15,209 nt of DNA from Promethearchaeota archaeon (GTDB lineage: Archaea > Asgardarchaeota > Lokiarchaeia > Sigyniarchaeales > SOKP01). The notes under the pieces are model-generated. The model was given only the letters and a program-made list of their open reading frames with translations, was not told where the DNA came from and ran no database searches. The DNA lies in NCBI GenBank assembly GCA_016930515.1, contig JAFGGO010000080.1:1-15209 (forward strand). The letters are read 5' to 3'. Shown here piece after piece: positions 1 to 11,333 of the stretch; position 1 is the stretch's first letter, and the number at the start of each line of letters is the position of its first letter. A program made the translations under genes and the position numbers.

Positions 1-1132
1 CATTCTTTTCCATAAAGTTAATAAATTCATTCATTGTGATATCTATTATTGTTTTTAGAGTCGTGTCAGCAATTCTTAGAGTCCGATGATATGAAATTTG
101 TGAGTAATCAAAGGCTCTAGCAATATACATCTGGATTACAGAAGGTAGCATTTTTTTATTATAAACTAGTTGATTAGGAATCGGAGAATCATTTTCAGTA
201 AGTTTAATATCACCAACTCCATATCCCTTTACAATCCGATGTATATCTATACTTCCAAATGGCGTTCCAGTAAAATATGATTCTCTTAAAATATAATCTA
301 ATTTATCAACATCCAAAGGACCATTTATTAAATGGCCAATTTTAATTCGATTTGACTTATCATATAAATCTTTATTAGATAAACCTTCGATTTTTTCTTT
401 ACCTTCAATTAAATTTGCTATATTTTCAACATTTATTTCAATATTATTATTGAATTGTCCAATTAGATCAAATAAATCCTTAAAAGGATTATTTTTAGGA
501 TTTAAATCTTCGAAAATATCCCCTCCTCTTATAATATTAGCGGTCCTGACTTCGTGATTATCTGGAAGGATGTTATTAATTTCATAATTCATTTTATGTT
601 GATAAATAAAATCATCAAATGCATGCTCTCCAAGATGGGAAAAAGGATAATGACCAATGTCATGAAGTAAAGCAGCAATACATAATTCAATATCATTATA
701 ATTATAATGTTTTCCATAAAGCCTTGGATTTTCCTTTATTGCATTAATTATATCAATAGTAATCTTATACGCTCCAAGAGAATGTTCGAACCTTGAGTGA
801 GTTGCTGTAGGGTAAACTAAATATGCTAAACCTTGATGTTTTATTCCTCTTAAACGTTGCATAAAAATCGTGTCTAATAATAGATAAATGTATTCCTCAT
901 TAATAGTGATAATTTTATGAATTGGAGTATTTATTATATCATTCTTTTTTAACTCAATTCCTAATCTATTATGATTTTTATATTGATCAAGTTGTTGTTG
1001 AAAAGAATTGAGTCCATTATTCCATCGATTTTCTAGACTTTCAAAAAGAAAATCGAGTTGTTGCAGAATTTTTAGTTTAGGCTTTGAATTTGTTTTATTT
1101 CTTGGGGTTCTTGGGGTTGCCTGATTTGCCAT
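1..1132 (-). CDS. SAMHD1-like / COG1078 HD-superfamily nucleoside triphosphate triphosphohydrolase (partial; runs off the left edge, 377 codons in window)
   Basis: Hand translation from ATG at 1132 is open to position 2 (MANQATPRTPRNK...MEKN). Motifs: INTPIH, DTIFMQRLRGIKHQG, VYPTATHSRFEHSLG (H117), AALLHDIGHYPFSH (H157-D158), NHE, GPLDVDKLDYILRES (D276), ARAFDYSQISYH. Missing from the ORF track because it has no stop codon in the window. Confidence 0.93.
   Translation of the reverse strand, partial: MANQATPRTPRNKTNSKPKLKILQQLDFLFESLENRWNNGLNSFQQQLDQYKNHNRLGIELKKNDIINTPIHKIITINEEYIYLLLDTIFMQRLRGIKHQGLAYLVYPTATHSRFEHSLGAYKITIDIINAIKENPRLYGKHYNYNDIELCIAALLHDIGHYPFSHLGEHAFDDFIYQHKMNYEINNILPDNHEVRTANIIRGGDIFEDLNPKNNPFKDLFDLIGQFNNNIEINVENIANLIEGKEKIEGLSNKDLYDKSNRIKIGHLINGPLDVDKLDYILRESYFTGTPFGSIDIHRIVKGYGVGDIKLTENDSPIPNQLVYNKKMLPSVIQMYIARAFDYSQISYHRTLRIADTTLKTIIDITMNEFINFMEKN
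1099..1118. repeat. 9-bp tandem duplication encoding Thr-Pro-Arg-Thr-Pro-Arg in the HD protein N-terminus
   Basis: ttcttggggttcttggggtt, period 9, read directly from the sequence. Confidence 0.8.
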
Positions 1133-1154
1133 AGAAAAAAGAAGAAAAAAAATG

Positions 1155-1167
1155 TATATAAATCTTT
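1155..1167 (-). promoter_or_regulatory. BRE/TATA promoter of the HD gene (probably a leaderless transcript)
   Basis: Minus strand reads AAAGATTTATATA, with the TATA ending about 23 nt before ATG 1132. The same AAAGATTTAWA motif lies upstream of maf and the FGase-family gene. Confidence 0.6.
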
Positions 1168-1414
1168 ACATTTCTGTATTAAAACATTCTTTATCAATGA
1201 ATTTATATTCAATTAAGAATTCCATTAATTCAATAATTTCTTCTTTAATAACGGTTCTCTCTGATTCTGTGTTTGATTTTTTTGAGAAATAGTTAGTTGC
1301 AGCTGTAATAAAATCCTCAAATTTTATTTTTCCATTATTTTGATTTAATTTTATCTTAAAAAACTGTAAGACTTGTGTTTTATTTGGTTTTTCTATTTTG
1401 CAATTAACTCCCAT
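1166..1414 (-). CDS. Small hypothetical protein (82 aa from ATG 1414; the track start is TTG 1423)
   Basis: Fills the gap between maf and the HD gene on the same strand and stops 33 nt before the HD start. Predicted helical; the C-terminal EEIIELMEFLIEYKFID resembles a winged-helix/PqqD-type last helix (weak). Confidence 0.6.
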   Translation of the reverse strand: MGVNCKIEKPNKTQVLQFFKIKLNQNNGKIKFEDFITAATNYFSKKSNTESERTVIKEEIIELMEFLIEYKFIDKECFNTEM

Positions 1415-1622
1415 AGGATACAATAATCATACACCATTATTTGAAATTAAATTATTATTTGTAAAAGAAGAAAATACCACTTAAAAAATTTAACCCATTA
1501 AAGATATTCTTATTTTAATAATAATTTTAAGATATTTTTTGTTTATGTCTTCATTAATCTTTTTTCAACAAGCAATAAAAATTTTTCCACGATTGCACTT
1601 AAGACTTTATCAATGTCATTTT

Positions 1623-2246
1623 TTAGATTAGATTTGTCGAAGTTGCGAAGAGGTTTATTTCGAATTCTTTTTTTAAAATATAGCGCAACTTGCTCATGGG
1701 TAAACCAAGCACATTCGAAGGTGAACCCTTGATAGATTCTACAAATAAACTCGCCGCTTCTCTCAAGGAATACGCTCCCGCTCTTCCCTTCCACTCTTCT
1801 AATTTTAAATACTCCTTGATTTCGTTATCAGATATAAGCGAAAACGTGACAAGTGTCTCGTCGTGGTCCACGACAATTTTTGAGGTTTTCGTGTCCGTAA
1901 TAGCTATCCCCGTCATAAGAGAGTGTTGGGTTCCCATTAATTGGTGTAAAATCACGAACGCTTCCTGTTCGTTACTTGCCTTTCCAATGATAGTTCCATC
2001 GTGGTAGATGACGGTGTCTGCAGCAACGATAATGGCCTCCTCGCCACGCTTCTTTAGTGTTTCTCTTGCGGTTATCGCTTTAAGCCGCGCCAGCGTTTTG
2101 ATCAATTCAATGGGGTTCGTTATTTCCTTCTTATAGGCATCTTCGTCAACTTGGGTTGCAAACACGCTAAAAGGAACTTTTGAACGCTCTAGTATCTTCC
2201 TGCGATCGATTGAAGCAGAAGCGAGCACTATCTTTTCCAAGGGCAT
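1623..2246 (-). CDS. maf: Maf-family nucleoside triphosphate pyrophosphatase
   Basis: LASAS..RR, VDE, LARLKA, IVAADT, IIGK, AGAY and GSPSNVLGLP motifs; 207 aa. Confidence 0.95.
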   Translation of the reverse strand: MPLEKIVLASASIDRRKILERSKVPFSVFATQVDEDAYKKEITNPIELIKTLARLKAITARETLKKRGEEAIIVAADTVIYHDGTIIGKASNEQEAFVILHQLMGTQHSLMTGIAITDTKTSKIVVDHDETLVTFSLISDNEIKEYLKLEEWKGRAGAYSLREAASLFVESIKGSPSNVLGLPMSKLRYILKKEFEINLFATSTNLI

Positions 2247-2289
2247 TCACGATTCTTTTCGTAAACCTTCGATAGTAAATATTCGTTGG

Positions 2290-2301
2290 TTTAAATCTTT
2301 T
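2290..2301 (-). promoter_or_regulatory. BRE/TATA-like promoter for maf
   Basis: Minus strand AAAAGATTTAAA about 44 nt upstream of ATG 2246, within the divergent intergenic region. Confidence 0.45.
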
Positions 2302-2315
2302 TACAAACAATCGCA

Positions 2316-2329
2316 GAAAAATTTAAGTA
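2316..2329 (+). promoter_or_regulatory. BRE/TATA-like promoter for the kinase-like gene
   Basis: GAAAAATTTAAGTA ending about 20 nt upstream of ATG 2349. Confidence 0.45.
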
Positions 2330-2348
2330 AAATCCACAAGTCTTTTTT

Positions 2349-3476
2349 ATGCAAATGTTGGCGACGATCTTTTTTATTGAATACCTTGCATTAGCGGTTT
2401 TTTGTGTCTTTTGTATCCTTGTCTATTTCAAAAATTCGAGGGAATCGGTTTTAAGCAACAAATATATGGGTCTTTTTGCCTTGATCGTCGTTTTTACCTG
2501 TATTTTTAGCATCCTGGCAAGAATCATAATCGAGCCAGGCTTGGAGATTAACGCCTTTTGGATGATAACCATTCTATTCGCTCCAATCGTTGCCTTGATC
2601 CTTTTGATATTCTTTTCCACGACGCTCAACAATGTTATTAAATATCGCTTTAGTTTTACGCTCAAATTTTTTTACGAACTCGAAACCAGATTGACACAAA
2701 AAATTCAGGTAATGAATCAAACGCGACAGGACACCGTGCGAAAGATCAATCACGTCCTCATGTTTGTAGGTTTATTGGTCCTCTGGTATATTTGCGTGGT
2801 TATTTTATTAAGTGTCGTTGGCTCCTTAAAAGGGATGATACCAGAAGAACAAAACGTGATATTGGTTTTTTTTCTCATGTTCTCGGATCAAATATCTCCT
2901 GCGAGTGCCTTGCTGAATTTCGGATGGTTTTATTACGTGATTTTTTACGTCTTTTACGTCCTATTTATTGTAATGATCGCCAACGAGTTTACCAGAAAAT
3001 CACACCGAACATGCCTTCCGTTTAATTACATCTCTCGAATCGTGCTCACGGACGAAGAAATAAGGAGTTACGGCACTTACTTGTATTTTTCGATTGGACA
3101 CTTGCTCGCTTCACTCTTTTGCCCACCAATGGTATTTTTCGCCATCCTTGGTGTAAGCTCTATCGCAGATCTCGTGGCGAGCCAAGTAGGAATTCGTTTT
3201 GGCAAGAAGCAAATCAGGTGGAATCGGAAGAAAACATGGGAAGGATCGATCGCCGCTTCGCTAGCCTGCTTTTTTATTTGTTTACTTTTTGTAGGAATTA
3301 CATTAAGTATACTGTTTTCAGTTGTGTTTCTAGTAGTGGACATTATCACGGGCGTCGGTTTTCGAAACTTGAACTTGTCTGATAATTTACTCACGCCAAT
3401 CGCCTTAACGCTCGTCTATATCTTCGTCGAAATGGCGTTTAATGTACCCCATCAAGCACTGTTGGTATTCTGGTAA
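2349..3476 (+). CDS. CTP-dependent polyprenol/diacylglycerol kinase-family membrane protein (SEC59/DGK1/VTE5-like)
   Basis: RKINH (RKxxH), SIADLVASQVGIRFGK...KKTWEGS (CTP-transferase signature) and DNLLTP motifs; many hydrophobic TM segments. Confidence 0.85.
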   Translation: MQMLATIFFIEYLALAVFCVFCILVYFKNSRESVLSNKYMGLFALIVVFTCIFSILARIIIEPGLEINAFWMITILFAPIVALILLIFFSTTLNNVIKYRFSFTLKFFYELETRLTQKIQVMNQTRQDTVRKINHVLMFVGLLVLWYICVVILLSVVGSLKGMIPEEQNVILVFFLMFSDQISPASALLNFGWFYYVIFYVFYVLFIVMIANEFTRKSHRTCLPFNYISRIVLTDEEIRSYGTYLYFSIGHLLASLFCPPMVFFAILGVSSIADLVASQVGIRFGKKQIRWNRKKTWEGSIAASLACFFICLLFVGITLSILFSVVFLVVDIITGVGFRNLNLSDNLLTPIALTLVYIFVEMAFNVPHQALLVFW

Positions 3477-3555
3477 AATATAAAAAAATATAATAACAAC
3501 TTGTGAATATTTTGTTTCAAGTAAAAGCTAAATTAAATAGATCTTTTGGATATTC

Positions 3556-4536
3556 GTGGCACAAGGAAAAAAACTAACCATTAACAAATTCGTGTTGGTC
3601 TTTTTAACCATCTTAAGCATTTTTGTTTTAATATATTATTTCTTTATTGATTTCAATCTTGGATGGAACGATATTGAAACGGAACTTAATAGAACACTCA
3701 CGTACGCTTTTTTTATTGTATATTTTTTCGCTCTGTCCCTTCTAATGCATTACAAATCTTATATTGCTCTTTATATCCTCATTTTAATTATTGGTGGCCC
3801 CATGTGGTTGATTCTTTACGCTTTTCAAACAGAAGGGTCCCTCATTGTTACGATCCGGAACGCATTGACCATTCCCTTGTTCGCAGTAGTTGCTCCGGGC
3901 TTGACTTTTAATTTCATGCAAATTATTAAAAACAAGTCGAAAAAATTCGCAAATAACTCTGTTTTAGGAAATTATCACATTCACGAAGGGCTTATCGGAG
4001 TAATCCTCGTTGTTATGGCTACTATATTATTAATTATTCGATATTTCGTAAATTCTAGCACTCTCCCTGAAGAATATCGTGAACTAATTCTCGCTCTCGT
4101 GGGTATTCTGCAGTTTCTACTCACCTATTCGGGAAGTTTCTTGGTCTTCAGGGATTTTCAAGATGTGATACATTTTAAGTTCCTTGAAAAAAAGCATCCT
4201 ACTCAAGCAACACGGAATGTTCACATTTCAGAAACATTTAACGAATTGAGTCCTGAATCGCTTAAATTTTTCAAACTAGCCTCTGCAAGATTATATCCTA
4301 TCGGAATACTCTTAAGCAGTCTTGGAGCAATAATGATCATCCACGCGCTCGACTTCTTGCCCTTAGAATTATTTGGTTTAACCCAAGAATCGGTTGCATT
4401 TTGGGGTTTTTTATGCATATTTTTCTCGGGGGCATTCATAGGATTTGACTGGTACCGTTTATTCGCACGATGTTATCCTCTCCTTTACGAAGAAGTCGAA
4501 ACAGTGAAACGGAAAATAAAAGATCAAGGTTATTAA
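3556..4536 (+). CDS. Hypothetical polytopic membrane protein
   Basis: 326-aa ORF with GTG start and about 8 hydrophobic segments; contains GNYHIHEG. Confidence 0.8.
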   Translation: MAQGKKLTINKFVLVFLTILSIFVLIYYFFIDFNLGWNDIETELNRTLTYAFFIVYFFALSLLMHYKSYIALYILILIIGGPMWLILYAFQTEGSLIVTIRNALTIPLFAVVAPGLTFNFMQIIKNKSKKFANNSVLGNYHIHEGLIGVILVVMATILLIIRYFVNSSTLPEEYRELILALVGILQFLLTYSGSFLVFRDFQDVIHFKFLEKKHPTQATRNVHISETFNELSPESLKFFKLASARLYPIGILLSSLGAIMIIHALDFLPLELFGLTQESVAFWGFLCIFFSGAFIGFDWYRLFARCYPLLYEEVETVKRKIKDQGY

Positions 4537-4573
4537 TAATTATAAATCTTATTAAAAAAAGTTAAAAAAAAGT

Positions 4574-5152
4574 TTATTTTTTGGTACTTAAATAGTATGC
4601 CAAACCACCAACAATTCCAACAATAGCGATAATAATTGCAACCCAAAACAATCCTGCAAACCAGGCGTTCACGTAATATGTATATGGCAAGGAATTAAAC
4701 GGCGTAACCCAGTGCCCGTCGATGTATACAATGAGGAGAAACGCAATTCCTACGAAAAATGAAAATGCCCCACCGACACCTCGACCACCTTTGTGTAATT
4801 TCGACTTCTTATTATCGCCGCTCTTGATGAATGCCTTCTCGTCTTCTGTTAATTTTAGCTTCCACAAATACCCCACATAAGCTCCAAGGATGCCCAATCC
4901 AATTGCAATCACGATTAATTCCCACAGGATGATTTCCACGAGAAACAATAGCACGGTTCCTATGGAAAATTCACCGAGAGTCGCCGTACCTTGGCGTCCC
5001 ACCCAGGAATTATTTATGTACGCAAACAACATTAACAAAAGTGCTGTAATGAAAAGAACAATCCAAACGCAAAAAACAACAAAAGCTCCCTTGTGGTTTT
5101 TTAACAGCTCCTTTACTTGCTTTAGTTCGATTTTTTCTTTATTTTCTTCCAT
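4574..5152 (-). CDS. Hypothetical membrane protein (about 4 TM segments)
   Basis: 192-aa ORF with hydrophobic segments separated by a Lys/Gly-rich loop; converges on the previous gene across T/A tracts. Confidence 0.8.
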   Translation of the reverse strand: MEENKEKIELKQVKELLKNHKGAFVVFCVWIVLFITALLLMLFAYINNSWVGRQGTATLGEFSIGTVLLFLVEIILWELIVIAIGLGILGAYVGYLWKLKLTEDEKAFIKSGDNKKSKLHKGGRGVGGAFSFFVGIAFLLIVYIDGHWVTPFNSLPYTYYVNAWFAGLFWVAIIIAIVGIVGGLAYYLSTKK

Positions 5153-5475
5153 TTTTTTTATCTACCAAATTTGATTTGTTAAATGCATGTTTTTGTTAAT
5201 ATATATAATTTATACTAATAAAATATGATGTGGAGACCAATTTTTGAAATTATTTTTTCGCTTTTTTAAGAACCAGCTAATTATCAGTTAATTACTCGCT
5301 AAATGGAGTTCTCTCTGATGATTGAAAATAAAATCGATATCGCGATAAATAATAATATGGGGATTAGAGTATTTTTTTTTTTCGTTATAGTACAAAAAAG
5401 TAGTAGAAAAACATTCACAATTTTAAGAGCTTCTTTTCAAGATTTAAAATAACATCAATCAAGAATTTTTTTACT

Positions 5476-5769
5476 TTAACCACCAAAATAGATGTAGAGA
5501 AACGCAAGATCGTCTCCGTCTTTCAATATTGTATTAAGATAATTGTTCCCTCGATATGTGCTTCCGTTAATAACTATAGAAAGGAAGGAACTAAATTGGT
5601 CTTTATTCTTTTTGTCCCAAAGAAGATCGTTAAATCCCGAACCGTATTTCTTGGATAATTGTGCAAATAGTTCCGTGAGCGTCATTTCGCTTTCAAAATC
5701 AAGCTCGGTGTTTATAACTTTCGTCAGCTCGTTAAATGGTGGGCTAAAATGAAATTTGAGTCTGATCAT
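5476..5769 (-). CDS. MoaD/ThiS/SAMP-family ubiquitin-like (beta-grasp) protein
   Basis: 97 aa; TLTELFAQL..KYG, IVING, LKDGDDL motifs and a C-terminal di-glycine (YIYFGG). Confidence 0.9.
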   Translation of the reverse strand: MIRLKFHFSPPFNELTKVINTELDFESEMTLTELFAQLSKKYGSGFNDLLWDKKNKDQFSSFLSIVINGSTYRGNNYLNTILKDGDDLAFLYIYFGG

Positions 5770-5935
5770 GGGAACATTCCTAGCGTTTTTTAAGGAACAT
5801 ATATTAATCCACGGATTTAATTTTAATGGTAATGATTGGTAATTCCAACCTATTCTTATCCTTCAAAATTAAGGCATGTTTTTTATTAAAGCTTTAACAG
5901 CAAATTAATAAAACGTGAGGCACTTGTAATAAACA

Positions 5936-6943
5936 ATGGCTCAAGTTTTTTTTATCTCGAAAAACAGCGTACGGGAGGCTTGGTTGTCTGCTCTTGGACA
6001 TGTGCTTTTTTTAGGAGACGACATCAAGACCGAATATGATAAGCCCGACGATCCCCCCTCGAAGGACGCCACGGTCATGATAGAAGTAAAGAACCCGATG
6101 AGAGATCCAATAGTGCGTCGGGGAAAAGTGCTTAAGGTAAAATCGAAGTACGGAAATTCTTACGAATTGTTCGGTTGCATGGCAGATACCTACTTGATGG
6201 GATCGATTCAAAGCGGGTATATCGAGGAGATTTTAGAAGGTTCGAACGACCATTATATATGGGATTCTGATGTGAGCTTTCCGTATTCTTACCACGACCG
6301 AATCTACAACTACGCTCCGTTTTCGCTGGAAGACGCGGTACACGTAGATTATGAACTTGATTTCATCGATCCTGCAGTCGTTAAGAACCAACAAAAGCTC
6401 TTGAAAACAGGGCGCATAGAGGTGAAAGCGAATGGAACTACTTGGAAGCTTAAAAACGGATTCGAGATAAGCCTTGATAAGAGCATATCAGAACAAATTG
6501 GAATAGAAAAAATACCCTTGAGTCTATTGAACCTTCCAAGGATAAATCAGGTGGATTATATCGTCAAGAAACTGAAAGAAAGTCCGTATAGCAGGAGAGC
6601 CCAAGCCATAACCTGGCGACCTTTAATCGATCCCTTCCACGAGGACCCTCCTTGTCTTCAGAGGATTTACATGCGTGTCAAGAACAACAAGCTTATCATG
6701 CAAACAATGTGGAGGAGTAGAGATTTGTTCCGTGCGTGGGAGGCGAATGTGAACGGAATGATACGAATACAAAAAAGCGTGGCTGACCAACTTGGCGTTG
6801 AAATGGGACATTATCTTGATTTTAGCAATTCGCTTCACGTGTATGGGAATACAATTACGGAACTCAAAGATATGATAGGCCGAATGCAAAATAGGGGGGA
6901 GCTTCCGGATGATTTTATTGAACTAATGGAAAAGAAAAATTAG
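5936..6943 (+). CDS. thyA: Thymidylate synthase, archaeal type, with a large internal insertion
   Basis: YSYHDRI, NQVDYIVKKL, SRRA, PPCL (catalytic C240), RSRD (R260-D263), N271 (the dUMP-specifying N177 equivalent, same spacing as E. coli) and SLHVY. Confidence 0.9.
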   Translation: MAQVFFISKNSVREAWLSALGHVLFLGDDIKTEYDKPDDPPSKDATVMIEVKNPMRDPIVRRGKVLKVKSKYGNSYELFGCMADTYLMGSIQSGYIEEILEGSNDHYIWDSDVSFPYSYHDRIYNYAPFSLEDAVHVDYELDFIDPAVVKNQQKLLKTGRIEVKANGTTWKLKNGFEISLDKSISEQIGIEKIPLSLLNLPRINQVDYIVKKLKESPYSRRAQAITWRPLIDPFHEDPPCLQRIYMRVKNNKLIMQTMWRSRDLFRAWEANVNGMIRIQKSVADQLGVEMGHYLDFSNSLHVYGNTITELKDMIGRMQNRGELPDDFIELMEKKN

Positions 6944-7047
6944 AAGGGTTAAAATCTAATTAGAATTTTATGCGAAGCCACACAATATAACTTGATATAC
7001 TAACCAGAAAATTTAATAATATCATGGAAGAAGAAGCTATTTGCTAA

Positions 7048-7066
7048 TTTTATTGGAGCAATAAAA
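7048..7066. promoter_or_regulatory. Perfect inverted repeat (8-bp arms), possible operator
   Basis: TTTTATTG-gag-CAATAAAA in the 311-bp intergenic region after thyA. Confidence 0.3.
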
Positions 7067-7254
7067 CAAATTGTGCATTTTACTCATTAAAATATACGAT
7101 ATCGCAATTAATTGTTAAGAATAAAAATTCTTAAATATCTTACTTACAAAAGAGTATGTGGATAAAATACATTTAAATTACAAAAATCCAACATATAATT
7201 AATGCTAAAAATAGTGCAATAAATCGCACTTCGATATTGCTTGTATCGGAAAGA

Positions 7255-7642: not shown

Positions 7643-8416
7643 TCACTTTTGCATTTCTTTGGAAAATAGTTTTGGAAAGATAATCTTCGTATTTTTCTCT
7701 ATCTGGCGCTCTAATTGCCCCAACTCTATTTGTTTAATTTCTGAAATTGAAGATAACACGTCTCGTATCATTGCAGGAGTCCCCACTTTTCCTGAATATT
7801 CCACAGGGCCGTCACTTTCTAGCAACAACCGTTCCAATGGAACATTCGAAACGACTTTTTTCGACACTGGAGAATATCCTATTGAGGGAGTTATGGAGAA
7901 GAAATATCCCCTATCAATGCCTTGCTTGAGCTGCTTTTCTGGTCCAGAATACCAATGTATGTTTACATTGGGGATATTAAAAGAGAGTAATGTTTCAAAA
8001 ACTTGATCTTCGGCGCCCTTACAGTGGATATTGACCGGTAAATCCAATTCCTGGGCTAAGACAAGCATTTTTTCAAAGATAATGGTTTGTAGAGGATATA
8101 AAGATTTATCCTTAATAAAATGGTGGTCAAGACCGATTTCTCCTATAGCGCAGATTTTATTCTGATTATGGCGAATGAGATCGATAACTGAGGGAAGTTG
8201 TGAAACAATATTTTCATTAACCTTTACTTCTTCGGGGTGTATCCCCAATGCGGGATAAATCTCATCATACCTGTTAGAAATTTCTAGTATTCTTTCCAAG
8301 CTAATAACGCTCATTCCAACACCGATAATTTTTAATACATTCTCGACATGAGCTTCCTGAATGATTTGATCCAGGGCTAGATATAAATTTACATGACAAT
8401 GAACATCAATTAGCAC
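7643..8416 (-). CDS. tatD: TatD-family metal-dependent hydrolase/nuclease
   Basis: IDVHCH, GIHP, AIGEIGLD, NIHC, IHWYSG and LLESDGP motifs; 257 aa with GTG start. Confidence 0.95.
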   Translation of the reverse strand: MLIDVHCHVNLYLALDQIIQEAHVENVLKIIGVGMSVISLERILEISNRYDEIYPALGIHPEEVKVNENIVSQLPSVIDLIRHNQNKICAIGEIGLDHHFIKDKSLYPLQTIIFEKMLVLAQELDLPVNIHCKGAEDQVFETLLSFNIPNVNIHWYSGPEKQLKQGIDRGYFFSITPSIGYSPVSKKVVSNVPLERLLLESDGPVEYSGKVGTPAMIRDVLSSISEIKQIELGQLERQIEKNTKIIFPKLFSKEMQK

Positions 8417-8528
8417 AAAAATTTAACATGCATCCTTCCATTTATATCCTCGTTTTCAAATTGAAAAGAAAAGTGGTTTAATGGTTAAGGAAATTAAAGC
8501 TCTCTTAAATAGGAAAATTTCGCATGTA

Positions 8529-8879
8529 TCACATGTTATTCACATTTTCCCTGAGTTGGGCTATTTTAAGCACGAGGTCGAACTTTTTTCTATTATTGGA
8601 AAATTCATCGTTTTCAAGCAACATTTTTGCGTGTTCTAACTGATTAAGCAAGAAATTCTTGAGGTCCTCAGTCGTAATATGTCCTAAAAGTTTTGGAATT
8701 GGTTCGATCTTGTCCATTTTTTTTAACCTTAACATGGATATTGCTTTGGCTATTTGAGATTGAAATCCTTGTGATTGGGTAGGATCAGCGTCTCCTAACC
8801 TATCAAATGAGTTTTTTAACCCATCAATAAAGTTTTCCAAGTCTTCGATTTCAATGATGTCGTTCCCAGTATTGGACAT
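8529..8879 (-). CDS. Hypothetical protein (116 aa from ATG 8879; the track start is TTG 8921)
   Basis: ORF co-oriented between the FGase-family gene and tatD; helical composition, no motif. Confidence 0.7.
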   Translation of the reverse strand: MSNTGNDIIEIEDLENFIDGLKNSFDRLGDADPTQSQGFQSQIAKAISMLRLKKMDKIEPIPKLLGHITTEDLKNFLLNQLEHAKMLLENDEFSNNRKKFDLVLKIAQLRENVNNM

Positions 8880-9022
8880 GATCTTGCTAGTATCAATCCT
8901 CAAATTCTTAATATAATACAAAAAACAATAAGATTATTTTAATATTTACTTCGAGTTTTTTGTACTGATTAGTGATACAGAAAAATGAATTCGTATGAGG
9001 ATTTTTTTAATACATACTTAAA

Positions 9023-9790
9023 TTAAGATATCAATTCAATCTCGTTTAAAAATTGTTCCGCTAGATTTTTTAATACTAGATTTTTCAAATCTTCGTTACG
9101 TAGTCTTAATCTGTCTGAAAACTCTATTTGAATTGCTCTAGACCTTGGATTATTAGATGCTCCGTGCTCTTGAACAATATAGCCTCCTTTTAATACAATT
9201 TCCTCTTCCCATGGATTTCCCGGCGCAATTGGTACACCTAATTTTAAAAACTTTCTTATTAATTTTCCTCGAATTGTATTGTTCCATTGTAATTTAGGAA
9301 TATCTTCAGAATAAAAAGATTTTAAATTATCCGTACCCAATATCACATCAACATCCCTAAATCCTGGTGGTCTTTTATGACTTTCAAAGCCGTGAATATC
9401 GATTAAGATGGAAATACCGTGTTTGGATATGTTTTCAGTTGTAATATTTCGTATCGTATCGTGATATTTTTTGAATATCTTGCTTGCGATATCTGATTTT
9501 TCGTAAAAAGCTTGATTAGGACTTCGATTTAAATCTATTTGAGATCTTCGTATTTTTGATACAACTTGAGAGGGCGTATGGCTTTTCCCTATTCTTTCTT
9601 GCGATATTTTTACGAACCAATCTGTTAAATCTTTAGCTAATTTCATCGTACCTTTATCGAATCCAAGAATTCCGCTCGTTCTTTTAGGAATGTTTTCGCA
9701 TTCAATACGCCCATCGTGAGGAACTGATAGAATGATGGGAATTGATCCTTGTTCGCAATGAACATACCTATTCATATCGTTCATTTTCAC
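9023..9790 (-). CDS. N-formylglutamate amidohydrolase (FGase)-family protein
   Basis: ILSVPHDG, IDLNR, YH, LIDIHG, DVILGT, GGYIV and AIQIEF motifs. Exact start uncertain (GTG 9790 or a nearby downstream ATG). Confidence 0.85.
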   Translation of the reverse strand: MKMNDMNRYVHCEQGSIPIILSVPHDGRIECENIPKRTSGILGFDKGTMKLAKDLTDWFVKISQERIGKSHTPSQVVSKIRRSQIDLNRSPNQAFYEKSDIASKIFKKYHDTIRNITTENISKHGISILIDIHGFESHKRPPGFRDVDVILGTDNLKSFYSEDIPKLQWNNTIRGKLIRKFLKLGVPIAPGNPWEEEIVLKGGYIVQEHGASNNPRSRAIQIEFSDRLRLRNEDLKNLVLKNLAEQFLNEIELIS

Positions 9791-10016: not shown

Positions 10017-11333
10017 TTGAAAAATAACATAAATATGCGTGAGTTCTTGGATAAGAAAATCGCTCTTGTTTTATATTACCACAAACACAATAAATACAGC
10101 TTTAACGCCTTAATTGGTGCCTTAGAATCGGAAAGAATAGATGATAAGGTAAGTATTTTCTTCTATAAAAATAAAGAGGCGCTTATTAGATGCTTACAGG
10201 GAATTGAGAATGACTATGAAACAGTTATCGCTTGTTTTTCGTTTTTTACGACTCAATTATGGGAAATTTACGAACTCTTAAGGAAATTAAAACGAAGAAT
10301 AAATAGAAAAAAGTATATCTTTGTTGCTGGGGGGCCACATCCTTCTGGAGATCCCCTTGGTACTCTCAAAATGGATTTTGATGTTGTGGTTTTAGGTGAG
10401 GGCGAAGAAACTTTCGTGGAACTAATTACAAAAATTTTAAATAGTCAGGATTACGCTAACATAAAGGGTATTGGAACAATAAAAACCAATGGAGAATATT
10501 ATTACGCGGGAAAAAGAAAATCGCTCGATTTAGATAGGTATGCTCCATTTCCAATAAAACAAGGCAAGTTTGGTCCTATAGAAATCACTCGTGGGTGTCC
10601 TTATCAATGCTATTTTTGTCAAACTTCTTTTTTGTTTGGGAGCATTCCTAGGCATAGAAGCATCGATTCAATTTGTAATTATGTTCGAATAATGAAAGAA
10701 AAAAATCTTACGGACATCCGATTCATAACGCCCAATGCATTTTCTTATGGTTCTCAAGATGGGCTCTCTCTTAATATTCCAAAACTCGAAGAACTTCTTG
10801 TAAAGATAAGGCAAATTATCGGACCAGAAGGGAGGATTTTTTTGGGGTCGTTTCCTTCTGAAGTAAGACCTGAACATGTTAACGATGTAACATTGAATTT
10901 AATAAAAACTCACGCTTCCAACGATAATATCATCATTGGGGCCCAGTCAGGTAGCCAAAAAATTCTAGATGTGTGTCATAGAGGACATGATGTGAGTGAT
11001 ATCTATGATTCAGTTGATTTAACAATTAAAAATGGTCTCAAGGTAAATGTTGATTTTATATTTGGGCTTCCAGGAGAGAATAATGAAGACGTCTTACTCA
11101 CAATAGATTTGATGAAGAAATTAAGCAGAAAAGGTGCGAGAATTCACGCACATGCTTTCATACCCCTTCCCATGACTCCTTTTGCTAGTAAAACCGCTCG
11201 AAGATTAGACGAAGTCCTGGTACGCGAGATAAGAGAATTGACTTCAAAAGGTCAAGCGTTTGGAGATTGGAAGAAACAAGAGCGAATCGCTGTTAAAATA
11301 TCTAAATATCTAAAGAGTACTAAAATTAGGTAG
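10017..11333 (+). CDS. B12-binding domain / radical SAM protein (TIGR04013, MJ1487-like family)
   Basis: YSFNALIGALE, GGPHPSG and GEGE in the B12-binding domain; EITRGCPYQCYFC (CX3CX2C); TPNAFSYGS, GSFPSEVRPE and GAQSGS. ATG 10035 is an alternative start. Confidence 0.9.
   Translation: MKNNINMREFLDKKIALVLYYHKHNKYSFNALIGALESERIDDKVSIFFYKNKEALIRCLQGIENDYETVIACFSFFTTQLWEIYELLRKLKRRINRKKYIFVAGGPHPSGDPLGTLKMDFDVVVLGEGEETFVELITKILNSQDYANIKGIGTIKTNGEYYYAGKRKSLDLDRYAPFPIKQGKFGPIEITRGCPYQCYFCQTSFLFGSIPRHRSIDSICNYVRIMKEKNLTDIRFITPNAFSYGSQDGLSLNIPKLEELLVKIRQIIGPEGRIFLGSFPSEVRPEHVNDVTLNLIKTHASNDNIIIGAQSGSQKILDVCHRGHDVSDIYDSVDLTIKNGLKVNVDFIFGLPGENNEDVLLTIDLMKKLSRKGARIHAHAFIPLPMTPFASKTARRLDEVLVREIRELTSKGQAFGDWKKQERIAVKISKYLKSTKIR

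What the first reader, a model, noticed from the sequence alone, without database searches (positions are those of the whole stretch)
1..1132. SAMHD1-like triphosphohydrolase with a fully remodelled sugar-binding pocket
Seen: the metal ligands and catalytic residues are intact (H117, H157-D158, D276, GHxPFSH, NHE). So are the GTP-allosteric residues equivalent to SAMHD1 D137/Q142/R145 (DTIFMQRLR). Gap-free by-eye alignment shows KQLG replaced by KHQG (H99/Q100 at Q149/L150, nt 833-838). It also shows RD replaced by RE (E284 at D319, nt 281-283) and VYxH replaced by ISYH (S347 at Y374, nt 92-94, anchored by R339 and H349). Established: in SAMHD1, Q149 and D319 bind the 3'-OH, while L150 and Y374 form the steric gate that excludes 2'-OH ribonucleotides. 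Inference: four concerted changes around the sugar with an intact catalytic core suggest a new substrate class. Candidates are rNTPs, 2'/3'-modified or antiviral nucleotides, or alarmone-type nucleotides. The enzyme may be a nucleotide-depleting antiviral effector analogous to SAMHD1 and bacterial defence dGTPases.
Basis: partly seen in the sequence, partly recalled or inferred. Interest (0 to 1): 0.85.

Follow-up and report, generated by a model that had tools for sequence, protein, structure and literature searches.

The report
SAMHD1-like enzyme with small partner
An Asgard archaeon carries a rare, foreign-looking two-gene unit: a relative of the human antiviral enzyme SAMHD1 with a conserved rebuild of the pocket that reads the nucleotide's sugar, and a small winged-helix protein predicted to bind it. 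It is probably a virus-defence module that destroys nucleotides, but its substrate is untested.

Summary
Window 2-1132 (minus strand) encodes the first 377 residues of a SAMHD1/EF1143-family HD triphosphohydrolase. All catalytic, metal, triphosphate and guanine-allosteric residues are intact. H99/Q100, E284 and S347 sit where SAMHD1 has Q149/L150, D319 and Y374. The four changes are not private: all 12 members of a small Asgard clade carry them at every position they cover, and none of 238 other relatives has the set.

"Fully remodelled" is overstated. Y315 is kept, Q-to-H and loss of the Tyr are older changes shared with a wider group, and other subfamilies vary here too.

New points:
- The gene is cut by the contig end; its last 232 residues start contig C56.
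- An 80-98-aa winged-helix ORF (window 1166-1423) lies directly upstream in every intact copy. The model supports binding (ipSAE 0.83, best control 0.00).
- The pair is very AT-rich (23-28% GC against 35%) and occurs in 3 of 400 genomes of the phylum. It usually lies beside TIR, restriction, STAND or SIR2 genes.
- The adjacent Maf gene is not part of it.

Best reading: a nucleotide-depleting defence or abortive-infection module with an opened 2' gate. The substrate is unknown. The scan has noted SAMHD1-like enzyme plus small-partner pairs on other DNA before, though not this clade or partner.

The parts
2..1132 (-). N-terminal 377 aa of the SAMHD1/EF1143-type HD triphosphohydrolase. It runs off the contig end; the remaining 232 aa are at G000:C56:1-699 (+).
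   Evidence: (PDB 2o6i E 3e-26; SAMHD1 E about 1e-17). Full-length homologue P0007 modelled at pLDDT 92, with best structural matches SAMHD1 and EF1143.
833..838 (-). Codons for H99-Q100, at the positions of SAMHD1 Q149 (3'-OH ligand) and L150 (2'-OH steric gate).
   Evidence: Conserved H-Q in 9 of 9 clade members that cover the site.
281..283 (-). Codon for E284, at the position of SAMHD1 D319 (3'-OH ligand).
   Evidence: E in 12 of 12 clade members and in 0 of 238 others.
92..94 (-). Codon for S347, at the position of SAMHD1 Y374.
   Evidence: Gap-free HMMER alignment to 2hek and 6pwy between the anchors R339 and H349. S in 11 of 11 clade members.
1166..1423 (-). 85-aa partner gene (TTG start), a small winged-helix protein directly upstream of the HD gene on the same strand.
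   Evidence: A homologous 81-98-aa ORF sits in the same position at eight homologue loci (six other lineages); only the 5'-truncated copy L007 lacks it. The family has only 7 proteins in 5.8 billion. Winged-helix fold. Complex model of the Loki's Castle pair: ipSAE 0.83 against 0.00 for controls.
1133..1165 (-). 33-nt AT-rich spacer between the partner gene and the HD gene; the two are probably co-transcribed.
   Evidence: In homologues the two genes overlap by 11 nt or lie 35-70 nt apart.
1424..1622 (-). 199-nt AT-rich intergenic region. It marks the compositional boundary of the island (Maf gene on the far side) and is the likely promoter region of the pair.
   Evidence: partner 22.9% GC and HD 27.9% GC against Maf 42.9% and genome 35.1%.

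Best explanation
The flagged ORF is the larger gene of a two-gene accessory module of Asgard archaea (family-level kin of a MAG labelled Hermodarchaeota).

Gene 1 (window 1166-1423) encodes an 85-aa winged-helix protein. Gene 2 (window 1132-2, continued on contig C56) encodes a protein of about 610 aa with the SAMHD1/EF1143 architecture.

Shown:
- The enzyme keeps every residue needed to bind two metals and a nucleoside triphosphate and to cleave between P-alpha and O5'.
- It keeps the guanine-recognising allosteric triad.
- The residues around the sugar are replaced in a clade-conserved way (H-Q, E, S).
- The pair is compositionally foreign, very sparsely distributed and usually sits among defence genes.
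- The partner is modelled with high confidence onto a clade-specific insert and the C-terminal tail of the enzyme.

Inferred:
- The enzyme is a nucleoside-triphosphate triphosphohydrolase.
- Its 2' gate is opened and made polar by L-to-Q and Y-to-S. It therefore probably accepts ribo- or 2'-substituted nucleotides, perhaps alongside dNTPs.
- The winged-helix protein binds it as a restraining or sensing subunit.
- On virus infection the enzyme depletes nucleotides, which is defence by abortive infection or replication arrest.
For: Family and chemistry:
- Pfam HD domain. Best PDB sequence matches are EF1143, BT4208, 2hek and SAMHD1.
- The model of full-length homologue P0007 has pLDDT 92.3 and pTM 0.93. 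It matches SAMHD1 and EF1143 over about 540-600 alignment columns.
- R164, H167, H206, D207, H210, H215, H233, E234, D311, K312, Y315, R318 and R366 equivalents are conserved in the clade.

Pocket:
- H-Q/E/S is conserved in all clade members that cover the sites and absent elsewhere.
- The clade is monophyletic with SH-like support 100.
- The roles of these residues in SAMHD1 are documented (PMC7045340; PMC5207538).

Partner:
- Conserved directly upstream in every intact copy.
- The family occurs only at these loci.
- Winged-helix fold.
- Complex model ipSAE 0.83 (three runs 0.81-0.84, at least 55% shared contacts, partner pLDDT at least 79). Best of 3 controls was 0.00. That mark was reached by 58 of 80 solved complexes and 2 of 110 mismatched pairs. 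I know of no solved complex of this kind, so a pass from memory is unlikely.

Accessory or defence nature:
- GC 23-28% against a genome mean of 35.1%, in the lowest 0.1-3% of windows.
- An orthologue is found in 3 of 400 phylum genomes, and in 1 of 6 genomes of its own genus.
- Neighbours include PDC-S35 TIR proteins (E 2e-65 and 7e-26), type IIG restriction enzymes (E 3e-186), SIR2_2, GIY-YIG and HNH. In this genome the neighbours are a NACHT/STAND protein and a weak HEPN-like ORF.
- Two copies are degraded.
Against: - No activity, substrate or phenotype is known for any member.
- The defence role rests on guilt by association. 2 of 7 lineages show no recognisable defence neighbour. LRR and STAND genes are abundant in these genomes anyway.
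- The clade is not detected by PADLOC or NCBIfam antiphage dGTPase models beyond the HD motif.
- In human SAMHD1, single substitutions at L150 or Y374 abolish activity. The remodelled pocket could therefore mean a different binding mode or function rather than a simple switch to rNTPs.
- I could not inspect model coordinates, so the pocket geometry and the position of the partner relative to the active site are not verified.
- The complex was modelled for the Loki's Castle homologue pair, not for the window's own split gene.
Confidence: 0.5

Rival explanations
1. It is an ordinary dNTP-specific triphosphohydrolase. H/Q/E/S is a drifted but functionally equivalent way of holding 2'-deoxyribose: H and E still bind the 3'-OH, and Q still blocks the 2'-OH. 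Only the regulation, through the partner, is special.
For: Q-to-H and D-to-E are conservative for hydrogen bonding. Gln is about as bulky as Leu. Y315 is kept. The Tyr374 position is already non-aromatic in a wider group and in other subfamilies, so the family tolerates variation there. All characterised members of the family are dNTPases (PMC3190883 abstract, listed; PMC7045340).
Against: The four positions are strictly conserved within the clade while the rest of the protein has diverged to about 50% identity. L-to-Q and D-to-E are unique to it. In SAMHD1 even L150V and Y374F abolish dGTP hydrolysis, so the pocket is not free to drift.
Confidence: 0.25
2. It is a selfish toxin-antitoxin-like addiction pair with no dedicated antiviral role. 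The HD enzyme is the toxin and the winged-helix protein a directly binding antitoxin.
For: The unit is two genes with the small gene first. Binding is predicted. Distribution is patchy, GC is low and some copies are degraded. The scan's earlier notes describe similar SAMHD1-like enzyme plus small-partner pairs.
Against: It cannot be separated from the defence reading by sequence, and many such pairs act in abortive infection. The neighbours are mostly defence genes rather than plasmid or transposon genes. There was no match on viral contigs.
Confidence: 0.15
3. It is a housekeeping or house-cleaning nucleotide module acting with the adjacent Maf pyrophosphatase. This is the three-gene reading in the scan's other note on this stretch.
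For: Maf lies 199 nt upstream on the same strand. A thymidylate-synthase-like gene and TatD lie further along the window.
Against: Maf has 42.9% GC against 23-28% for the pair. No Maf is called near any of the homologue loci. The pair was not found with this query in 5 other genomes of the genus (68-96% complete) or in 132 of 135 family genomes searched.
Confidence: 0.05
4. It is not a triphosphohydrolase. The scaffold may act mainly as a nucleic-acid-binding protein or nuclease, or as a phosphohydrolase of a signalling nucleotide, for example one linked to the neighbouring TIR proteins.
For: PDC-S35 TIR proteins are adjacent in two lineages. SAMHD1's allosteric sites can bind oligonucleotides (PMC7854603 abstract). 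The partner has a winged-helix fold, which is often DNA-binding.
Against: All triphosphate-binding residues (R164, K312, R366 equivalents) and the catalytic H/E dyad are conserved. TIR adjacency is seen in only 2 of 7 lineages and in different orientations.
Confidence: 0.05

Closest known systems
Enterococcus faecalis EF1143 and related prokaryotic COG1078 dNTP triphosphohydrolases (PDB 2o6i/3irh/4lrl, 2q14, 2hek)
   Same: Best sequence matches (E 3e-26 to 1e-22). Same HD core, C-terminal lobe, catalytic and triphosphate-binding residues, and D/Q/R allosteric motif.
   Different: The known enzymes have KQ[LV]G, RD and VY[FY]H; this clade has [KHR]HQG, RE and IS[YH]H. The clade also has a 60-aa N-terminal helix, a 12-residue insert after PFSHxxE and a longer C-terminal lobe (about 575-605 aa against 370-480). 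It has an obligate small partner gene.
Human SAMHD1 and eukaryotic orthologues (C. elegans ZK177.8, Rhizophagus SAMHD1)
   Same: Same fold over the whole catalytic domain (Foldseek E about 1e-14, TM 0.5-0.69). Same catalytic mechanism residues and guanine-binding AL1 triad. SAMHD1 is a nucleotide-depleting antiviral factor.
   Different: There is no SAM domain. Four of the five sugar-contacting residues differ. The clade is closer to the prokaryotic branch than to eukaryotic SAMHD1, so it is not a special Asgard-eukaryote link.
Clover defence system (CloA dNTPase plus CloB regulator; PMC12265719)
   Same: A two-gene unit in which an HD dNTPase-type effector is restrained by the product of the adjacent gene.
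   Different: CloB is a nucleotidyltransferase that makes an inhibitory nucleotide. Here the partner is an 85-aa winged-helix protein predicted to bind the enzyme directly. CloA is a Dgt-type dGTPase.
Stand-alone antiphage dGTPases (Tal et al. 2022; PADLOC dGTPase; octameric Vdg, PMC13519002)
   Same: HD-domain nucleotide-depleting defence effectors found in defence islands.
   Different: They belong to the Dgt-type subfamily. The models match this protein only over the HD motif (30-40 bits against cut-offs of 152-400).
SAMHD1-like enzyme plus small antitoxin-like (Panacea/DarG-like) partner pairs noted earlier in this scan
   Same: A COG1078 enzyme tightly coupled to a small gene, in AT-rich mobile cassettes. 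A canonical-pocket example with a 175-aa upstream ORF occurs in a genome of the same genus.
   Different: The partner here is a different, much smaller winged-helix family. hhalign found no similarity to the 175-aa partner. The enzyme pocket is non-canonical.

Membership tests
SAMHD1/EF1143-type (COG1078) HD nucleoside-triphosphate triphosphohydrolases | HD-domain metal ligands H...HD...D | tested here: met
   H117, H157-D158 and D276; Pfam HD E 2e-7; conserved in the clade and the family.
SAMHD1/EF1143-type (COG1078) HD nucleoside-triphosphate triphosphohydrolases | Catalytic and triphosphate-binding residues (SAMHD1 R164, H210, H215, H233/E234, K312, R366) | tested here: met
   R114, H161, H166, H193/E194, K277 and R339 are present and are conserved in all or nearly all clade members (E194 is N and R339 is K in one member each).
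SAMHD1/EF1143-type (COG1078) HD nucleoside-triphosphate triphosphohydrolases | Whole-protein fold including the C-terminal lobe | tested here: met
   The P0007 model (pLDDT 92) matches 9mr6, 6pwy, 4lrl and human SAMHD1 at E about 1e-14 over 540-600 alignment columns. The window's own C-terminal part lies on C56. Tested on a 55%-identical homologue, not on the split window protein.
SAMHD1/EF1143-type (COG1078) HD nucleoside-triphosphate triphosphohydrolases | Guanine-nucleotide allosteric site 1 (D137, Q142, R145, N119) | tested here: met
   D87, Q92, R95 and N68 are present and conserved in the clade. This is sequence-level evidence only.
SAMHD1/EF1143-type (COG1078) HD nucleoside-triphosphate triphosphohydrolases | 2'-deoxyribose-specific pocket (Q149, L150, Y315, D319, Y374) | tested here: not met
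   H99, Q100, Y280, E284 and S347: only Y315 is kept. This lowers the claim 'dNTP-specific enzyme', not the claim 'works like a SAMHD1-type triphosphohydrolase'.
SAMHD1/EF1143-type (COG1078) HD nucleoside-triphosphate triphosphohydrolases | dNTP triphosphohydrolase activity and tetramer assembly | not testable with these tools
   Needs purified protein.
Antiphage dGTPase (Dgt type; NCBIfam NF041026, TIGR01353; PADLOC dGTPase) | Family HMM score above the curated cut-off | tested here: not met
   30.4 bits against a cut-off of 400, 39.7 against 152, and PADLOC 34 bits over 75 residues only.
Clover (CloA dNTPase plus CloB nucleotidyltransferase) | Adjacent Pol-beta-type nucleotidyltransferase partner | tested here: not met
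   The conserved neighbour is an 85-aa winged-helix protein with no Pfam or PADLOC hit.
Winged-helix domain proteins (the partner) | Three-helix bundle plus beta wing | tested here: inconclusive
   The model has pLDDT 73 with three helices and a short C-terminal strand element. Foldseek against the PDB found nothing at E <= 0.001. VIA-align top rows are almost all winged-helix domains, but Z is only 6-7. The Atlas structure search gives E2F/DP winged helix at TM 0.73, plus ArsR and MarR.

The most novel reading that the evidence does not exclude
The clade is the first SAMHD1-family enzyme that hydrolyses ribonucleoside or 2'/3'-modified nucleoside triphosphates. Candidates are NTP pools or antiviral chain-terminator-type nucleotides. 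It would be held inactive by a directly bound winged-helix subunit and released on infection. That would be a new kind of nucleotide-depletion immunity in the archaeal relatives of eukaryotes.
Probability: 0.25. Interest if true: 0.8.

Novelty: new variant of a known kind. Interest (0 to 1): 0.6.

Why it matters
SAMHD1-type enzymes are known only as dNTP-specific hydrolases. Their sugar selectivity rests on a handful of residues, and this clade has replaced almost all of them together and then kept the new set. If the enzyme acts on ribo- or sugar-modified nucleotides, that would extend nucleotide-depletion immunity beyond dNTPs. It would also give a natural template for re-engineering SAMHD1 specificity.

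The tightly linked winged-helix partner, predicted to dock on a clade-specific insert, suggests a protein-based way of keeping a potentially lethal nucleotide hydrolase in check. This would sit alongside the nucleotide-signal control recently shown for Clover.

The clade is tiny and confined to Asgard archaea, so its ecological weight is small. Its value is mechanistic.

Tried and rejected
- **Maf as part of the module:** rejected on composition and lack of conserved linkage.
- **Weak Pfam RNR_N hit of the 85-aa ORF:** 20 bits against a cut-off of 29.4, in 1 of 6 members. Rejected as chance.
- **Pfam and PADLOC on the partner:** nothing usable.
- **Foldseek against the PDB for the partner model:** no match at E <= 0.001.
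- **hhalign of the partner family against the 175-aa ORF upstream of a canonical COG1078 gene in a congeneric genome:** no similarity. My guess that this ORF is Panacea-like got no Pfam support.
- **The 220-aa ORF downstream on C56 as a PDC-S35 relative:** only a 34-residue BLAST match to one TIR neighbour, and none to the other. Not claimed.
- **Viral contigs:** no relative found.
- **Metagenome scan:** 5 clade loci, all lineages already seen, so no new independent contexts.
- **Nucleotide overlap between the window end and the C56 start:** none. The two contigs abut within about 0-2 codons by alignment, but the join is not proven.
Full report
**Observation.** The window is the first 15,209 bases of contig C132 of a 4.0-Mb, 190-contig assembly. 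The minus-strand ORF at 2-1132 starts at an ATG at 1132 and runs off the contig end. H99-Q100 are at nt 838-833, E284 at 283-281 and S347 at 94-92.

Pfam finds an HD domain. The NCBIfam and PADLOC dGTPase models touch only the HD motif and score far below their cut-offs. The best matches among solved structures are EF1143 (2o6i, E 3e-26), BT4208 (2q14), Aquifex 2hek, C. elegans and fungal SAMHD1, and then about 25 human SAMHD1 entries at E about 1e-17.

HMMER aligns the three pocket motifs without gaps:
- IKHQG against IKQLG or IKQVG.
- LRESYFTG against LRDAYFTG.
- QISYHR against QVYFHK (2hek) and KVYQHK (6pwy).

All solved relatives have the canonical pocket.

**Are the residue roles established?** The review PMC7045340 states that Gln149 and Asp319 hydrogen-bond the 3'-OH. 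It also states that Leu150, Tyr315 and Tyr374 pack around the base and deoxyribose, and that Leu150 and Tyr374 prevent bulkier groups at the 2'-proR position.

PMC5207538 refines this. L150 is the steric gate for the ribo 2'-OH, and Y374 clashes with 2'S substituents and lies on a mobile helix. L150V, L150A, Y374F, Y374I and Y374A are all inactive in human SAMHD1. The pocket is therefore not free to drift in SAMHD1, which makes a conserved four-fold replacement meaningful.

**Private or conserved?** A search of 5.8 billion proteins finds about eleven close relatives (47-60% identity, full length 574-604 aa). Similarity then drops sharply to about 30%. An exhaustive HMMER search agrees. One relative is labelled Candidatus Hermodarchaeota, another comes from the Loki's Castle sediment metagenome, and several come from Asgard MAG assemblies.

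In this clade H-Q is present in 9 of 9 sequences that cover the site, E in 12 of 12 and S in 11 of 11. Among 238 other nearest relatives none has the set.

A FastTree of 110 family members puts the clade on a long, fully supported stem. It sits inside a 26-row group (support 95). In that group the Tyr374 position is already A/I/V/T/S/P, and Q149-to-H is common. Only L150-to-Q and D319-to-E are unique to the clade.

Other large subfamilies carry other non-canonical sets, for example Q-L/T/S-or-A. Non-Tyr at 347 goes with non-canonical 3'-OH ligands in 47 of 67 cases. With Tyr at 347 the figure is 19 of 153 (descriptive only, since the sequences are related).

"Fully remodelled" is therefore too strong. 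Y315 (Y280) is kept and two of the changes are older. The clade-specific signature is nevertheless real.

Y348 is unlikely to replace Tyr374. Position 348 is His in 4 of 11 clade members, and canonical enzymes have aromatic residues at both positions. I could not check this on coordinates.

**The whole gene.** A search of the assembly with full-length homologue P0007 finds the missing C-terminal 232 residues at the very start of contig C56, with no other paralogue. The two contig ends share no nucleotide overlap. By alignment they abut within about 0-2 codons. The complete protein is therefore about 610 aa.

An AlphaFold model of P0007, built from a 74-sequence alignment, has pLDDT 92.3 and pTM 0.93. 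It matches fungal, nematode and human SAMHD1 and EF1143 over 540-600 alignment columns (E about 1e-14, TM up to 0.69 by target). The long C-terminal part is therefore the usual SAMHD1/EF1143 lobe with expansions, not a new domain.

**A conserved partner.** Directly upstream on the same strand lies an 85-aa ORF (1166-1423, TTG start, 33-nt spacer). An ORF of 81-98 aa occupies the same position at the eight homologue loci in alignment A3 (six other lineages). It either overlaps the HD gene by 11 nt or lies 35-70 nt away. These ORFs align with each other.

A profile search finds only seven such proteins in 5.8 billion, all at these loci. Pfam and PADLOC find nothing.

The partner's model has pLDDT 73 and three helices. 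Foldseek gave no significant hit. VIA-align's top rows are almost all winged-helix domains (MCM C-terminus, kleisin, histone H1, DpnI C-terminus, Rpa2, cullin WHB) at Z 6-7. The Atlas structure search gives E2F/DP winged helix at TM 0.73, plus ArsR and MarR. I call it winged-helix-like with moderate confidence.

A complex model of P0007 with its own partner scores ipSAE 0.83 (three runs 0.81-0.84, at least 55% of contacts shared, partner pLDDT at least 79). The best of three controls scored 0.00. That mark was reached by 58 of 80 solved complexes and 2 of 110 mismatched pairs. The model supports binding; it does not show it.

The confident contacts on the enzyme fall in four places:
- Residues 164-177, a clade-specific insert between PFSHxxE and the NHE dyad.
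- Residue 240.
- Residues 421-446 in the C-terminal lobe.
- The last three residues, next to a conserved C-terminal YN motif.

**Context.** The pair is compositionally foreign. The HD gene has 27.9% GC (C132 part) and 23.5% (C56 part), and the partner has 22.9%. The genome mean is 35.1%, so these values lie in the lowest 0.1-3% of 1.2-kb windows. The adjacent Maf gene has 42.9%.

Maf is not called near any homologue locus. It is therefore not part of the unit, contrary to another first-stage note on this stretch.

The clade orthologue is found in only 3 of 400 genomes of the phylum. All three are in the window's family (3 of 135). Within its own genus only G000 has it, 1 of 6 genomes; the other five are 68-96% complete. 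Two copies are degraded: one lacks the first 137 residues and one has an in-frame stop.

Neighbours in the seven independent lineages are:
- PDC-S35 TIR proteins in two lineages (E 2e-65 and 7e-26).
- Type IIG restriction-modification enzymes in two lineages (E 3e-186).
- SIR2_2, GIY-YIG, HNH and DUF3800.
- In this genome on C56, a weak HEPN-like ORF, two LRR proteins and a 1,259-aa NACHT/STAND protein.

Two lineages show no recognisable defence gene. No relative was found on viral contigs.

**Interpretation.** The enzyme is a member of the SAMHD1/EF1143 structural family in every respect except the deoxyribose-specific pocket. I therefore file it as working like a SAMHD1-type triphosphohydrolase, not as a proven dNTPase.

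Replacing the Leu gate with Gln and the Tyr with Ser makes the 2' side of the pocket roomier and polar. His and Glu replace the two 3'-OH ligands. By analogy with steric-gate logic, this suggests ribo- or sugar-modified nucleotides. This is inference only.

The genomic evidence points to an accessory, horizontally moving, probably defensive module. In it a small winged-helix subunit binds the enzyme as a restraint or sensor. The closest known logic is Clover, in which the adjacent gene restrains a dNTPase effector, but through a nucleotide signal (PMC12265719). Surveys of defence dGTPases (PMC13519002) do not describe this clade.

Earlier notes of this scan describe other SAMHD1-like enzymes with small partners on other DNA. 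A canonical-pocket example with an unrelated 175-aa upstream ORF occurs in a genome of the same genus.

**Verdict.** This is a new variant of a known kind. Interest is moderate to high because of the conserved pocket change plus the predicted protein partner. It is limited by the tiny clade, by widespread pocket variation in the family and by the lack of any functional data.

Noticed in passing
G000:C56 (L015) 852-1514, 1690-3357, 3388-7167, 7858-9483: Downstream of the HD gene's C-terminal part lie four ORFs. One is a 220-aa ORF with weak, sub-threshold HEPN hits. One is a 555-aa LRR protein whose C-terminus weakly matches DRT-associated nitrilase models. One is a 1,259-aa protein with an HSDR_N-like N-terminus and a NACHT/STAND NTPase domain. 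The last is a second LRR protein. GC stays low (25-31%) up to about position 7167.
   Followed up: partly
P0121, P0131 (1,482 and 1,494 aa) among about 30 proteins of 1,400-1,650 aa listed (P0127, also scanned, showed HD only): These are giant proteins with two SAMHD1-like HD domains. At least two of them also carry a C-terminal CYTH (triphosphate tunnel) domain. CYTH-family enzymes include inorganic triphosphatases, and inorganic triphosphate is the product of a triphosphohydrolase. Their pocket signature is Q-T/V/S with Asn at the D319 position.
   Followed up: partly
L019 (G005:C195) 921-1448 and 1483-3021: A genome of the same genus carries a canonical-pocket COG1078 gene (512 aa; NQLG, RDS, VYFH). 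It lies 35 nt downstream of a 175-aa ORF with no Pfam match. This is another SAMHD1-like enzyme with a small upstream partner, unrelated to the 85-aa family.
   Followed up: partly
L002 6710-7498 (-) and L005 438-1277 (+): PDC-S35-type TIR proteins (PADLOC E 2e-65 and 7e-26) lie next to the partner-HD pair in two different lineages. One is divergent and one is co-directional with a 273-aa unknown gene between. A functional link is possible but is seen in only 2 of 7 lineages.
   Followed up: partly
L007 7989-9320 and L018 562-2295: Two clade copies look degraded. L007 lacks the first 137 residues, and therefore the allosteric and HQ motifs and the partner gene. L018 is split by an in-frame stop into 314 and 210 aa. 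Both lie beside a type IIG restriction enzyme.
   Followed up: partly
window 1623-2246 (-): The Maf-like pyrophosphatase (Pfam E 5e-46) has 42.9% GC. It borders the low-GC pair directly and marks the island edge. Another first-stage note flags unusual specificity residues in it; I did not examine these.
   Followed up: no
window 5936-6943 (+), 7643-8416 (-), 10017-11333 (+): A thymidylate-synthase-like protein matches Pfam only over residues 201-319 of its 335 aa; another note flags an insertion in it. A TatD-family hydrolase and a B12-binding radical SAM protein lie further along. These look like ordinary host genes.
   Followed up: no
window 2349-3476 (+), 3556-4536 (+), 4574-5152 (-): Three ORFs of 375, 326 and 192 aa have no Pfam or PADLOC match.
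   Followed up: no
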